Shown here one piece after another: positions 3,001 to 6,000 of a DNA stretch of 26,501 bases. This stretch comes from a virus. Taxonomy: Duplodnaviria; Heunggongvirae; Uroviricota; Caudoviricetes. Numbering within the stretch: position 1 is the first letter of the stretch; every line of letters begins with the position of its first letter. Location of the stretch: positions 1 to 26,501 of IMG/VR virus record IMGVR_UViG_2534682163_000012. One strand, 5' to 3'. A program made the position numbers.

Positions 3001-6000
3001 ATTTGGCGCTTTTTTCATTTCTGCTCTCTCCACGCGGCAATCATGTTTTTCAGTTCCTGTAGTTTTTTATCCACATCCACACGTGACACACGGTTATTTC
3101 TGAAAGTCGGGATTTCCCGCCGGAATCTGCAAATAAAGATCTCCACGTTCAGCGAACTAAGAAATGAATAGCCATCACGGATAAAATACACACGGTCAAA
3201 CATCAGTTTTTTTACCGTTACTCTGTTACCGTTCTTATCCAGATAAATAGCGCCGGGGACAATTTTAGGGTGTGCATAACCGCTGGCAGTCAAGCCAGAT
3301 AAATACGTTCTCATGATTATTTATCCCCGATTTGAATCAGTATTCGCTTTCTTTATAGCATTTAATGCATCTGTGGCATTTTCAATGGTGCACCGTAACG
3401 AAATATCAAAATGTCCAAGCATTGCCAGTAACAAACCGATATTACCCATATCAATGCGCATGGCCTTTTCGTCATAGTCCTCATTTTCTGACGCATGCCA
3501 CATCAGGCTACCAATTGACGCAACAGCCATTGATATATTGTTAGTAGCCCCATCCGCAGCGGAATAAACCTTTTTAGCAATATCATGCTCACAGTTAAAA
3601 TGCGTATTAATCAGGTACTGGTAATTGGTCATGTCAGGCATGGAACACCTCCTGACGAATACGGGCGGCGAATACAGCAACACAACCGGACGGGCAACGG
3701 CTACGCGCTTCGCGTTCCGTCCAGGCGGTGACGTGGATGATTTGAGATTCTGACGCGCCAAAGATGATAAAGCGCCAGATAAAGGCGGTTTGAGAATGTA
3801 CAAGGGTAGGGGTAGTAGCCATGTTGGCAGCCTCCTTGATTGATGGAATGTAACCACCGCAGGAGGTGAGAAGCTCGCTGGCGGTGGACTGTACAGGGTT
3901 CTCACAACTGGCAATCAAGGGAACCAGCCTGACCGAAGTCAGCCCCATACAGCCCACCATTGTATAGGTGTGCGTGTGCGCCGATACAAAAAAAGACGCG
4001 TGCGGCGTCTGTATCGCCTCGATTGTCAGCGGGGTGAGAATCCCGGCACCCGTTTTATGAGGTGCGCGGGAATCATAGCCATTTTTGCTGGTGGCGATCA
4101 ACTGGTTTTTCATACCCGCTTTATTCAGGTTGTGCGAGTCCCGCCCTTGCGGGTGTGTGGTATGATTTCTCATAGCTACCTCGATACTTTCGCTATCGTT
4201 GGTGGTCAGAGGCTGCGAAAGGACGGCAATCCTTTTCAGCCTCGTTTGCATTGAGTGATAAACACTCAGCTGGATTCCAGTATAATCACTAAGTGGAATC
4301 CACTTCAAGCGTTTTGTTTTGGTCTTTTTCGTGTATACTGGATTCCAGTAATCACAAAGGGAACCAGAAATGGAAAGAGACCATATCAATAACAAATCAC
4401 AGAAATTACAGGCTCGCGCCCCGCATGAAGTTGTTGAGGCTATGGAGCAAGTAAAAGAAACAGGCGAGAGCACTGCGCAATTTATCGTTACAGCCATGCG
4501 AGGCGAGATCAAACGCCGCCAGCGCCGTAAGGCCAAAGAATCAGAATAATCACTATCAGCGCCGTGGTGTGAGGTACTACGGCGCATTGCTTTACAGGGC
4601 AGTATCATGACCAACAACACACTATCACCAATACAAGACACGCAAACGCAAGATGATGAAATCATCCGGCAAAGGCAGTCAGAAGCCTGCGCCAGACTTG
4701 AGGAAGAACTAACCAGAACAAAAATACCACCACCAGCGCCGCGCTTAGTGCCACCAGAAAAATTTGCCCTTGAAGATTTTGTCGATAAATACCCACGGCG
4801 GCTTAAATCCGGCAAAAACCGACCGCCAGGATGAGTGCACAAAACCGAACTATGAAACGGATTATTCCGTTTCCGGGGCGTTTGTGTGTGTATAAAGAGT
4901 AAGCTATGCTCTTTTATAGCCATAATCGTTACCTCAATTAATGGTTTGGTTAGACGCCCCGCTACTGCCGCAAACAGTTCGGGGCGTTGTCGTTTACATC
5001 CTCTTACTGAGGTGTGATTTAAATTAAATTCAACTGAATCACAGGCAAAGTGTTTTTTGTGATTCTTTTTTGTGTATACTGAATCACATCTTTTGTTTAG
5101 GAGAATGCACATGGCAAAAAACACTATCAACGACAAATCAAAACAGATTTCAATTCGTATCCCACATGATGCTTTTGATGGCATGGAATCCGTAAAACTG
5201 GACGGCGAAAGCAACGCCGGATTCATAGTAACCGCCATGCGCGGGGAGATCGCCCGCCGCCAAGCAGAAGGAAGCAGTGAAAATCCTCTGATTTCTTCTC
5301 TCGATGCATTGGCGCAAGTGGAAAAAATTGGTATTAAAGCTACGGAAGAACTCGGGCAACTTATCGCCATCGCTCGTGAAGAACTACAGCGCCGCAAGGC
5401 CAAAGAATCAGAATAAAAACCACCAGCGCCGTGGTGTGGGGAATCGCGGCGGCAATCATAGGAGTAAAAGATGTTAAAATTAAAAAAACATGTACCAATG
5501 ATGGTTGCTTTAATTATCACAATCTTTCTCTTAATATCATGCTTTGAGAAAAATAGTCTTTGCTCAAACGATAAGGGCGATTTATTACGGCGTGCTTGCG
5601 ATGTAGAGTTGAAAAAAAGTTGAGCACTACCTAACCGAGACAATGCCGTAGTTCCTGTAATCACAGGATCGCTCAGGCTTTGCCCACCAGCCGCAAATAT
5701 GGCATTGTTGGCGATGCTCATGCGTTGGGGATAACGCGCAATTTGTGTTGAAGGGCCACCGTGACAGGTGGCCTTTTCTTTGCCTGTTATCCGGCAATTG
5801 TGGCGCTTCTTCACACAGTTGATATAATTCCCCTGCACTGATCCAATTTTTTCGCAGCAGGTTAATTGTTCGCAAGGGCGCTCCGGCAACGGGGCGCTTT
5901 TTGTTTTTACCCACCAGCACAATAAAAATCTTCATTTTCCATTTTTGTAAAATTTCATGCTTTCCGGACGACGGGCTATATGTCATTTTTTAGCAGAAGA

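What the first reader, a model, noticed from the sequence alone, without database searches (positions are those of the whole stretch)
4262..5416. Tandem paralogous small regulators, each behind its own repeat array
Genes 4370-4549 (59 aa) and 5111-5416 (101 aa) share FIVTAMRGEI and the C-terminal RRKAKESE, and differ mostly at synonymous positions, so they are real plus-strand genes in an otherwise minus-strand element. The second has about 40 inserted residues. Each is preceded by its own array: TGGATTCCA-type inverted repeats bracketing a perfect TATAAT for the first, four TGTGATTC/GAATCACA half-sites about 22 bp apart for the second. Both have GTGTATACTG just upstream of the RBS. This looks like a duplicated autoregulatory repressor pair with diverged operator specificity.
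Basis: partly seen in the sequence, partly recalled or inferred. Interest (0 to 1): 0.5.

Follow-up and report, generated by a model that had tools for sequence, protein, structure and literature searches.

The report
Paired satellite repressors with private operators
Two small DNA-binding repressor genes, each next to its own binding sites, sit back to front inside the control region of a phage satellite that is itself inserted in a prophage; the pair arose by module shuffling, not local duplication, and belongs to a widespread, uncharacterised switch family.

Summary
Genes 4370-4549 (59 aa) and 5111-5416 (101 aa) are real paralogues (52% identity, E=7e-21). Both pass the NCBIfam YlcI/YnfO model, and each follows a non-random repeat array.

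They are predicted ribbon-helix-helix (RHH) proteins. Across about 65 related loci from some ten enterobacterial genera, the control-region scaffold is constant. The 9-bp sites at fixed positions change with the protein's N-terminal strand. The sites bracket the -10 of a leftward promoter and overlap the gene's own promoter. That leftward promoter drives a P4-like operon: kil-like leader, isrK/C4 RNAs, Icd-like, primase. I read them as satellite immunity repressors and autoregulators.

The "duplication" reading fails. Short and long forms are old, separately widespread subfamilies (dS about 1.1). The tandem occurs in 4 of 5426 complete E. coli genomes, against about 1100 genomes matching part of the region, single-cassette loci among them.

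Unexpectedly, both cassettes lie antisense inside a 765-codon stop-free frame, which I interpret as a P4 eta-like ORF. That frame stays open in every related locus, and ylcI codon choice avoids antisense stops (1/362 against 17.6% expected).

No experiment supports any of this. It is a new variant of known kinds.

The parts
4370..4549 (+). ylcI59: short-form YlcI/YnfO-family predicted RHH repressor (59 aa)
5111..5416 (+). ylcI101: long-form YlcI/YnfO-family predicted RHH repressor with a C-terminal long helix (101 aa)
   Evidence: NF041551 scores 65.7 bits. phrog_6522 hit. AF2 gives H19-28, H35-54 and H59-100. 207 homologues across Enterobacterales.
4271..4347 (.). Operator set 1: TGGATTCCA 4271-4279, TGGAATCCA 4294-4302, TGGATTCCA 4339-4347 (9-bp palindromes TGGA-W-TCCA)
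   Evidence: 3 copies in the window against 0.23 expected. The same three sites sit at the same distances from the ATG in Serratia L102 and Xenorhabdus L103, which encode the same N-terminal strand class. 26 of 27 site columns are invariant, against 33 of 59 outside the sites.
5013..5088 (.). Operator set 2: TGTGATTT 5013-5020, TGAATCACA 5035-5043, TGTGATTC 5058-5065, TGAATCACA 5080-5088 (two inverted-repeat pairs)
   Evidence: Conserved in Serratia L016 and Edwardsiella L017, which have the same KQISIRIP strand but different replication proteins.
4279..4308 (-). Predicted leftward promoter PL1 (-35 TTGAAG 4308..4303, -10 TATACT 4284..4279), bracketed by operator sites 1 and 2
   Evidence: Consensus scan. 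The -35 (tcAAG on the + strand at -66..-62) and the -10 position are conserved in 21 loci of different specificity classes.
4334..4339 (+). Predicted -10 (TATACT) of the ylcI59 promoter, abutting operator site 3
   Evidence: It lies in the conserved block cTTTTTnGTGTATAnTG at -46..-30 in all classes. No good -35 is present.
5021..5049 (-). Predicted leftward promoter PL2 (-35 5049..5044 TTTGCC, degenerate here; -10 TAATTT 5026..5021)
   Evidence: Position is homologous to PL1. The -35 is TTGACC in about 35 single-cassette loci and in L002. It is mutated in three of four tandem loci: TTTGCC in the window, TTTACC in L001 and L023.
5075..5080 (+). Predicted -10 (TATACT) of the ylcI101 promoter, flanked by operator sites 3 and 4
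4559..4585 (+). Conserved hairpin just after the ylcI59 stop. A homologous, weaker hairpin lies at 5427-5451 after ylcI101.
   Evidence: RNA fold gives -19.9 kcal/mol, z = -2.7. The same hairpin follows the unrelated Arc-like cassette in L004.
4607..4834 (+). hyp75: small 'MTN...' protein that follows the hairpin; function unknown
   Evidence: Annotated in RefSeq relatives. A 71-aa homologue follows the Arc-like cassette in L004. No Pfam, NCBIfam or PHROG hit.
4905..4995 (.). Junction segment shared by cassette-1-type and cassette-2-type elements. It holds a fossil start of a leftward kil-like leader ORF (ATG 4923, RBS GAGGTAA) and a hairpin at 4953-4988.
   Evidence: BLAST coverage of H7 and H13 overlaps here. 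See, and the fold.
3637..5931 (-). 765-codon stop-free frame (eta-like ORF). It runs antisense through both cassettes and then in frame into the kil-like leader (ATG 4173), isrK, C4 and the Icd-like ORF.
   Evidence: 0 stops in this span, against 48 and 51 stops in the other two minus frames over 3500-6100. The longest open run in 2000 simulations was 264 codons. The same frame is open for 327-2457 nt in all of about 65 related loci. Pfam Phage_ASH hit. P4 eta/kil paradigm as described in PMC10111431.
3877..4065 (-). isrK-like (3989-4065) and C4-like (3877-3964) RNAs, relatives of P4 seqA and CI immunity RNA
   Evidence: Rfam gives 63.3 and 75.4 bits, both above gathering thresholds. The equivalence with P4 seqA/CI is stated in PMC10111431.
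3634..3837 (-). Icd-like ORF; its stop overlaps the start of the next gene of the replication operon
   Evidence: RefSeq annotation of relatives. phrog_29966 hit.
5471..5623 (+). 50-aa ORF with a strong RBS and a lipoprotein-like signal (LLISC), downstream of ylcI101
   Evidence: Sequence. It is in the same reading phase as the other three + strand ORFs. It is not annotated in relatives.
5754..5901 (+). Two + strand intrinsic terminators (5754-5781 and 5874-5901) that would stop rightward transcripts before BRO-N/alpA/int
   Evidence: Fold gives -19.4 kcal/mol, z = -3.9.

Best explanation
Both genes encode ribbon-helix-helix DNA-binding proteins of the YlcI/YnfO family, one short-form and one long-form with an extra C-terminal helix.

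Each sits in a compact divergent control region with a conserved scaffold. Two protein-specific 9-bp sites bracket the -10 of a leftward promoter. In the window's cassette 1 that promoter drives the satellite's early/replication operon: kil-like leader, seqA/CI-type RNAs, Icd-like, DUF4222, primase. One or two further sites overlap the gene's own rightward promoter.

Bound protein would therefore shut off both promoters. That makes it an immunity-type repressor of satellite replication which also limits its own synthesis. The site sequences and the N-terminal strand vary together, giving many specificity (immunity) classes.

The window's satellite is a helper-embedded PICI/P4-like element. It carries two such modules because of recombination between related satellites at shared flanking sequence.

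Both modules lie antisense within an eta-like open frame. Transcription and translation arriving from the alpA/BRO side would read through this frame, as in P4, where translating eta overrides immunity-dependent termination.

Shown: gene reality, family membership, repeat non-randomness, protein-site covariation, conserved geometry, mosaic origin, and the conserved open antisense frame.

Inferred: DNA binding itself, repression rather than activation, promoter activity, and the read-through logic.
For: Family and fold:
- NF041551 hits score 72 and 66 bits against a cutoff of 30.
- AF2 models show an extended N-terminal segment followed by two helices, with G-E-S at the turn.
- hhalign against Arc/Mnt aligns strand, helix A and helix B in register, E=4e-4.
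- An Arc-like RHH (phrog_228, E=5e-7) occupies the equivalent slot in L004.

Operators:
- An ATG-anchored, ungapped comparison of 21 loci from about 10 genera shows constant blocks: the minus-strand -35 at -66..-62, a T-run, and GTGTATAnTG. Variable blocks lie at -100..-91, -77..-68, -54..-46 and -31..-23.
- Loci with the same strand class in distant genera keep the same sites while spacers drift.
- A Q-to-S strand class change goes with TGGATTCCA changing to TGGCACCCA at all three positions (L105).
- The same operators occur with four different replication proteins, so they are not iterons.

Mosaic origin.

Eta-like frame.
Against: - No binding or expression data exist.
- AF2 monomers cannot show the intersubunit beta sheet. 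Foldseek against PDB and BFVD gave nothing significant. Pfam gives only sub-threshold RHH-family hits.
- The rightward promoters have a good -10 but no recognisable -35, and the promoter scan found only PL1.
- Cassette 1 has three sites, not four.
- Classes QLTTVRVP and QMTTIRVP have nearly identical strands but different sites. Specificity must therefore also depend on other residues, or the simple strand-reads-site model is incomplete.
- Protein N-terminus and operators are physically linked, so part of the covariation reflects co-inheritance.
Confidence: 0.7

Rival explanations
1. A local tandem duplication of one autoregulatory repressor gene, followed by divergence of protein and operator in place.
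For: The two cassettes are homologous from promoter to 3' hairpin and lie 741 bp apart.
Against: dS is about 1.1. The short and long forms are separate, widespread subfamilies and separate PHROGs. Each cassette occurs alone in many genomes, while the tandem is in 4 of 5426. An 85-bp junction is shared with single-cassette elements, and an alternative partner cassette exists.
Confidence: 0.04
2. The proteins do bind these sites, but they act as activators or Cro-like lytic-phase regulators rather than maintenance repressors. A related possibility is that their main target is the toxic kil-like leader.
For: The own-gene promoters lack a -35 element, which is a feature of activator-dependent promoters. 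The first leftward gene is kil-like, per the P4 paradigm.
Against: The sites overlap the spacer, the -10 and the +1 of both promoters. That is repression geometry. RHH regulators of this size, such as Arc, Mnt, CopG and omega, are repressors (established knowledge).
Confidence: 0.15
3. They are RHH antitoxins of type II toxin-antitoxin pairs, with the downstream small ORF (hyp75) as the toxin.
Against: hyp75 matches no toxin family. Cassette 2 and most long-form loci have no partner. A hairpin separates the two genes. The operators also control the divergent replication promoter.
Confidence: 0.05
4. The + strand ORFs are by-products of the long minus-strand eta-like gene, and the repeats are bound by another factor such as AlpA, integrase or a replication protein.
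For: The minus frame is under selection to stay open across them, and third codon positions coincide on the two strands.
Against: Family members exist outside this context, for example K-12 YlcI in DLP12, without a long antisense frame. The predicted RHH fold is confident. Both genes have an RBS. The sites covary with the YlcI N-terminus and not with the replication module. The minus-frame peptide is not conserved between loci to the right of ylcI.
Confidence: 0.03

Closest known systems
Phage P4 immunity region (PLE/PLL promoters, nested eta/kil genes, seqA and CI RNA)
   Same: The leftward operon begins with a short leader ORF, followed by isrK-like (seqA) and C4-like (CI) RNAs ahead of the primase. 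A long same-frame ORF extends upstream of the internal promoter and often overlaps the stop of the alpA homologue. It hits Pfam Phage_ASH.
   Different: The internal promoter here is flanked by protein operators, and a divergent RHH gene lies antisense inside the eta-like frame. No YlcI relative was found by tblastn in 50,697 deposited phage records. Many relatives, such as L001 and L002, lack the RNAs altogether.
Arc and Mnt of phage P22 immI (RHH repressors, one dimeric and short, one with a C-terminal tetramerisation helix)
   Same: There is a short and a long RHH form. The strand ends in R-x-P, and a G-x-S turn separates the helices. The profile alignment is in register. Both systems have operators at divergent promoters.
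   Different: Neither window protein hits Pfam Arc. Site spacing here is about 22-23 bp rather than adjacent half-sites. The two genes are not divergent from each other. Each controls its own module in a satellite.
Omega repressor of pSM19035 (RHH binding 7-bp heptads in direct or inverted orientation)
   Different: Omega heptads are contiguous, whereas these sites are two helical turns apart. There is no detectable sequence homology.
Helper-embedded PICIs (HE-PICIs; PMC10111431)
   Same: The element shows the integrase / AlpA / Bro / replication / late zone order. [quoted passage not shown]
   Different: That paper describes immunity RNAs and Bro proteins in the 'Bro zone'. It does not mention YlcI/YnfO or RHH proteins or their operators (0 occurrences).
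Stl master repressors of SaPIs
   Same: The position and presumed role match: a divergently transcribed repressor that holds the satellite's replication operon off.
   Different: The fold is unrelated (Stl is HTH). The inducing signal for YlcI is unknown.

Membership tests
NCBIfam NF041551 YlcI/YnfO family | Score above the curated cutoff (30 bits) for the 42-residue N-terminal model | tested here: met
   72.3 and 65.7 bits, covering residues 9-50 of both proteins.
Ribbon-helix-helix (Arc/MetJ/CopG) superfamily | N-terminal extended strand, then helix A, a short turn (G-x-S/T/N) and helix B within about 45 residues | tested here: met
   AF2 gives coil 8-18, H19-28, turn G32-E33-S34, then H35-54/58, with pLDDT 73-95 over this region. 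E33 is invariant in the family.
Ribbon-helix-helix (Arc/MetJ/CopG) superfamily | Structural or profile similarity to solved RHH proteins | tested here: inconclusive
Ribbon-helix-helix (Arc/MetJ/CopG) superfamily | Homodimer whose paired strands insert into the major groove of repeated sites | not testable with these tools
   Only monomer prediction was available. Indirect support comes from strand/site covariation across loci.
P4-type immunity region | CI-type RNA and its seqA-type target upstream of the replication genes | tested here: met
   Rfam C4 scores 75.4 bits and isrK 63.3 bits, both above gathering thresholds.
P4-type immunity region | Nested same-frame genes: a short one (kil) from an internal promoter inside a long one (eta) translated only from upstream | tested here: met
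   The leader ATG at 4173 is in frame with the 765-codon open frame. The frame is conserved in about 65 loci. Phage_ASH hit. Translation itself was not shown.
P4-type immunity region | Rho-dependent, immunity-specific termination relieved by translation | not testable with these tools
   This needs transcript mapping with and without Rho inhibition.
Helper-embedded PICI | [quoted passage not shown] | tested here: met
   In L002 and L003 the terL gene is split into two pseudogene halves flanking the element. The same int-side junction is seen in the window.
Type II toxin-antitoxin (RHH antitoxin) | Adjacent, co-transcribed toxin gene of a recognisable family | tested here: not met
   hyp75 has no family hit, and cassette 2 has no partner.
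Pfam Arc (PF03869) | Score above the gathering threshold | tested here: not met
   There is no Arc hit for either window protein at E up to 10. Only the L004 third-cassette protein hits weakly, at 16.5 bits against a cutoff of 20.4.

The most novel reading that the evidence does not exclude
YlcI/YnfO proteins would be a hypervariable, protein-based immunity system of enterobacterial P4/PICI-type satellites. Their genes are fully nested antisense inside the eta-like anti-termination ORF.

The result would be a convergent-transcription switch. In the resting state the RHH protein shuts the internal replication promoter. When alpA-side transcription is triggered, translated read-through crosses the repressor gene in antisense, silences it and overrides termination.

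Tandem cassettes would then make a two-key lock, or dual immunity. Every inserted cassette must obey a frame rule: same phase and no antisense stops.
Probability: 0.35. Interest if true: 0.75.

Novelty: new variant of a known kind. Interest (0 to 1): 0.6.

Why it matters
- The module, or part of it, is present in roughly a fifth to a third of complete E. coli genomes: 1100 and 1967 of 5426. It also occurs in many other Enterobacterales. Its protein family nevertheless has no assigned function.
- If these are satellite immunity repressors, their specificity classes would predict which satellites can coexist or exclude each other. They would also indicate how satellite replication is gated relative to the helper prophage.
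- The family offers a dozen or more natural repressor/operator pairs on one constant promoter scaffold. That is attractive for building orthogonal genetic switches.
- The conserved, statistically overwhelming open frame antisense to a real gene is a clean natural case of selection acting on both strands at once. It extends the P4 eta/kil paradigm to a large group of satellites.

Tried and rejected
- PDB sequence searches with the single protein and with the profile gave no RHH hit.
- Foldseek of the 101-aa model against PDB gave nothing below E=2.
- Foldseek of the 59-aa model against BFVD gave only uncharacterised proteins.
- The afdb50 library was unavailable.
- Literature lead RgdR (ECs1581): it turned out to be the DUF4222 gene upstream of the primase, not YlcI.
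- Literature lead EcCIMP1 'repressor': it is a PerC/ANR-like protein and is unrelated.
- Iteron hypothesis: rejected, because the same sites occur with four different replication proteins.
- TA hypothesis: rejected (see the rival explanations).
- Plus-strand TATAAT at 4281-4286 as the ylcI59 promoter: it is not conserved in orthologues (TATAGG, TATAAA), whereas the overlapping minus-strand -10 is.
- Chance or composition as the cause of the long antisense frame: rejected by frame-specific stop counts, simulations and the codon-context test.
- The genome-contig scan returned only 9 loci. Viral contigs and exact-protein look-ups supplied the rest.
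Full report
**Observation.**
Window 4370-4549 and 5111-5416 are + strand ORFs of 59 and 101 aa, each with a Shine-Dalgarno-like sequence. They share 30 of 58 residues (E=7e-21), including FIVTAMRGEI and the C-terminal RRKAKESE. The long form has a 42-residue insertion. The DNA homology runs from about 100 bp upstream of the ATG to a hairpin after the stop.

TGGAWTCCA occurs three times in the 26.5-kb window, all within 77 bp upstream of the first gene. The expected count is 0.23, and 0 of 100 shuffles reached 3. 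TGTGATT/AATCACA occurs four times in alternating orientation, with starts 21-24 bp apart, upstream of the second gene.

Nei-Gojobori counting gives 22 synonymous and 33 non-synonymous differences: pS 0.59, pN 0.24, dS about 1.1. The genes are therefore under purifying selection but are anciently diverged. They do not differ 'mostly at synonymous positions'.

**What the proteins are.**
Both pass the NCBIfam YlcI/YnfO N-terminal model, at 72 and 66 bits against a cutoff of 30. They fall in two PHROGs of unknown function, phrog_949 (short) and phrog_6522 (long). Pfam gives only sub-threshold hits to an RHH antitoxin-type family.

AlphaFold models built from a 27-sequence alignment have mean pLDDT 78 (101-aa model) and 81.5 (59-aa model). 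They show an extended segment at 8-18, helix 19-28, a G-E-S turn, and helix 35-54/58. The long form adds a helix at 59-100. This is the RHH order of elements.

I take the RHH fold as likely but not proven. Foldseek and PDB sequence searches were uninformative.

**Context.**
The element is a satellite with these parts:
- integrase, 6921-8159
- AlpA-like HTH, 6704-6928
- BRO-N, 6067-6549
- the two + strand cassettes
- a leftward operon of Icd-like, a 106-aa protein, DUF4222 (a 31%-identical relative of RgdR), primase and SSB

In close relatives it sits inside the terminase large-subunit gene of a lambdoid prophage. That makes it a helper-embedded PICI as described in PMC10111431.

On the minus strand, Rfam finds an isrK-like RNA (3989-4065) and a C4-like RNA (3877-3964) between the control region and the Icd-like ORF. 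According to PMC10111431 these profiles detect relatives of P4 seqA and CI immunity RNA.

**Not a local duplication.**
The 101-aa form has 207 relatives across Enterobacterales. The 59-64 aa form is a separate subfamily that is equally widespread, and the exact window protein is on at least 1000 contigs.

In 5426 complete E. coli genomes, about 1100 carry part of 4150-5700 but only 4 carry both cassettes in tandem. None has the window's exact arrangement, because the four tandem genomes lack a 336-bp isrK+C4 segment.

Single-cassette elements exist for each type. L003 has cassette 2 only. L004 has cassette 1 followed by a third, unrelated cassette: GGTAATTACC palindromes, a 57-aa Arc-like RHH, the same 3' hairpin, and a homologue of hyp75.

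Cassette-1-type and cassette-2-type elements share an 85-bp segment at 4905-4990. It contains the start of a leftward leader ORF (ATG 4923) and a hairpin, and it marks the recombination junction.

**Operators.**
I collected about 65 distinct loci and compared the 125 nt upstream of the start codon without gaps. All share a scaffold:
- tcAAG at -66..-62, which is a minus-strand TTGAnn -35
- a T-run
- cTTTTTnGTGTATAnTG at -46..-30

Between these constant blocks lie variable blocks at -100..-91, -77..-68, -54..-46 and -31..-23. Within a locus the variable blocks are repeats of one 7-9-mer. Their sequence goes with the protein's residues 11-18:

| Strand residues 11-18 | Site sequence |
|---|---|
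| KQISIRIP | TGTGATTC |
| QK[LV]QARAP | TGGATTCCA |
| QKMSARVP | TGGCACCCA |
| QQLNARFP | TGGTATTCA |
| QSLTARIP | GTGTAAGAC |
| QLTTVRVP | GTGTGTTTC |
| Q[LI]KN[IV]RIP | GTGTGTATT |
| QIKNVRVP | GTGTGCAT |
| QMTTIRVP | GTGAGATAC |

Predictions made from the window held. Serratia (L102) and Xenorhabdus (L103) proteins of the cassette-1 class have TGGATTCCA at the same three positions. There, 26 of 27 site columns are invariant against 33 of 59 elsewhere. Serratia and Edwardsiella proteins of the cassette-2 class have the TGTGATT array. In the QLTTVRVP class, E. coli and Xenorhabdus/Photorhabdus loci keep GTGTGTTTC/GAAACACAC while the spacers differ.

The same operators occur with four different replication proteins: D5-type primase, RepA helicase, DUF927, and Toprim-DUF927. 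They are therefore not iterons.

Two caveats apply. The operators and the N-terminal coding region are adjacent and co-inherited. QLTTVRVP and QMTTIRVP differ little in the strand but have different sites.

**Geometry and mechanism.**
Sites 1 and 2 bracket a conserved minus-strand promoter. In cassette 1 it is TTGAAG (4308..4303), an 18-nt spacer, then TATACT (4284..4279). The equivalent hexamers are present at the same positions in the other classes.

The remaining site or sites overlap the -10 and start region of the gene's own promoter, which has a good -10 and no clear -35.

This is repression geometry for both divergent promoters. I infer an immunity-type repressor of the leftward operon that also autoregulates. 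The leftward operon comprises the kil-like leader, immunity RNAs, Icd-like and the replication genes.

**The antisense frame.**
The minus strand has no stop codon from 5931 to 3637 in one frame, a run of 765 codons. The other two frames have 48 and 51 stops over 3500-6100, and 2000 Markov simulations reached at most 264 codons. This frame runs antisense through the 50-aa ORF, ylcI101, hyp75 and ylcI59. It then continues in frame into the leader ATG at 4173, across isrK and C4, to the Icd-like stop.

In all of about 65 loci the same relative frame is open for 327-2457 nt, against 12-390 nt for the other frames. This is the frame in which third codon positions coincide on the two strands. Its right end often overlaps the stop of the upstream leftward gene: AlpA in L018 and L103, BRO-N in L102 and L105, AntA in L016. 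To the right of ylcI the translated sequences are largely unrelated between genera, yet all are open.

Inside 54 distinct ylcI genes, the codon preceding His or Gln codons ends in T only once in 362 cases, against 17.6% T elsewhere. Codons preceding Tyr never end in T or C (0 of 7). K-12 ylcI in DLP12 has no such extended frame.

All four + strand ORFs in the window are in the same phase, as are the four in L004. The cassette spacings (741 and 867 nt) and the isrK/C4 indel (336 nt) are all multiples of three.

The translated frame hits Pfam Phage_ASH. PMC10111431 summarises the P4 precedent. A promoter internal to eta gives a transcript that terminates through CI/seqA. The truncated product is Kil. 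Full-length Eta is translated only from an upstream late promoter, coupled to the alpA homologue, and its translation prevents termination.

I therefore interpret the frame as an eta-like ORF, and the YlcI cassettes as genes nested antisense within it. That a read-through transcript also silences ylcI by convergent transcription is my speculation.

**The tandem.**
In this reading, cassette 1 controls the PLE-like promoter next to the leader. Cassette 2's leftward promoter lies upstream, and its transcript would be translated from ATG 4923 through cassette 1 and the immunity RNAs.

Its -35 is TTGACC in about 35 single-cassette loci and in one tandem locus (L002). It is TTTACC in L001 and L023 and TTTGCC in the window. 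This is suggestive of decay or down-tuning in the tandem context, but these loci are related, so it counts as one or two events.

**Comparison and novelty.**
The parts are known kinds: RHH repressor/operator modules (Arc/Mnt, omega), P4-type RNA immunity with eta/kil, and HE-PICIs. Four things appear undescribed:
- the assignment of YlcI/YnfO proteins as operator-specific regulators at the satellites' internal promoter
- their many specificity classes on one scaffold
- their nesting antisense in the eta-like frame
- the modular tandem arrays

Supporting this, 39 papers mention the family names and none that I opened assigns a function. The HE-PICI paper does not mention the family. There is no relative in 50,697 phage records.

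I rate the finding as a new variant of known kinds. Everything about binding, repression and read-through remains inference from sequence.

Noticed in passing
window 3637-5931 (-); also L001-L106: A 765-codon stop-free frame runs antisense to both ylcI genes, hyp75 and the 50-aa ORF, in frame with the leader, isrK, C4 and Icd-like. It is conserved as an open frame in about 65 related loci, and ylcI codon choice avoids antisense stops. I interpret it as a P4 eta-like ORF.
   Followed up: yes
window 3877-4065 (-) and 23539-23727 (-): There are two isrK + C4 RNA pairs (P4 seqA/CI or P1 c4-type immunity RNAs), one in the satellite and one in the flanking lambdoid prophage. The four RefSeq genomes with the tandem cassettes lack the satellite copy through a 336-bp, in-frame deletion.
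   Followed up: partly
window 8159-9328 and L002 11873-25180: The satellite is inserted inside, and co-oriented with, the terminase large-subunit gene of a lambdoid prophage. The two halves are annotated as pseudogenes. This is the helper-embedded PICI configuration described in PMC10111431.
   Followed up: partly
window 5044-5049: The -35 of cassette 2's leftward promoter is TTTGCC here and TTTACC in L001 and L023. It is TTGACC in L002 and in about 35 single-cassette loci. This may reflect decay of that promoter in the tandem context.
   Followed up: partly
L004 5840-6351: A different tandem partner for cassette 1: two GGTAATTACC palindromes, a 57-aa Arc-like RHH gene, the same 3' hairpin, and a 71-aa homologue of hyp75. 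In L104 an Arc-like gene directly precedes a short ylcI, followed by BrnT/BrnA.
   Followed up: partly
window 3015-3314 (-): The DUF4222 protein directly upstream of the primase is 31% identical (E=1e-12) to RgdR/ECs1581 of O157 Sp7. RgdR is a published regulator of LEE type III secretion (PMC3378721).
   Followed up: partly
window 5471-5623 (+): An unannotated 50-aa ORF with a strong RBS (AGGAG) and a lipoprotein-like signal (LLISC), downstream of ylcI101. It is in the same phase as the other + strand ORFs.
   Followed up: no
window 4607-4834 (+): hyp75, a small Pro-rich 'MTN...' protein, recurs after the conserved hairpin in several loci (L004 twice, L018, L019, L020). It has no family assignment.
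   Followed up: partly
window 4350-4356 and 4395-4401: Two cassette-2-type half-sites (AATCACA), 45 bp apart, lie in the 5' UTR and early coding region of ylcI59. They are probably coincidental, because one is within the conserved NKSQ codons and both are also present in single-cassette E. coli loci. Cross-regulation is not excluded.
   Followed up: no
window 4918-4990: A 73-bp piece of the junction segment (leader start plus hairpin) is 85% identical to short stretches in three deposited phage records: Escherichia ECO95 1-6-1, Salmonella S.Kent 1-2-1 and Klebsiella P12620-1.
   Followed up: no
window 14272-14482 (-), 15897-16148 (-): An STnc100 sRNA (146 bits) and three tRNA genes (Arg-tct, Arg-tcg, and Met-cat, which is annotated as Ile in a relative) lie in the lambdoid prophage.
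   Followed up: no
L001/L002/L003/L004 upstream of SSB (outside the left end of the window): These satellites carry their own ClpP-like prohead protease/major capsid fusion gene, homologous in name to the helper's. This is a captured late gene, as described for HE-PICIs.
   Followed up: no
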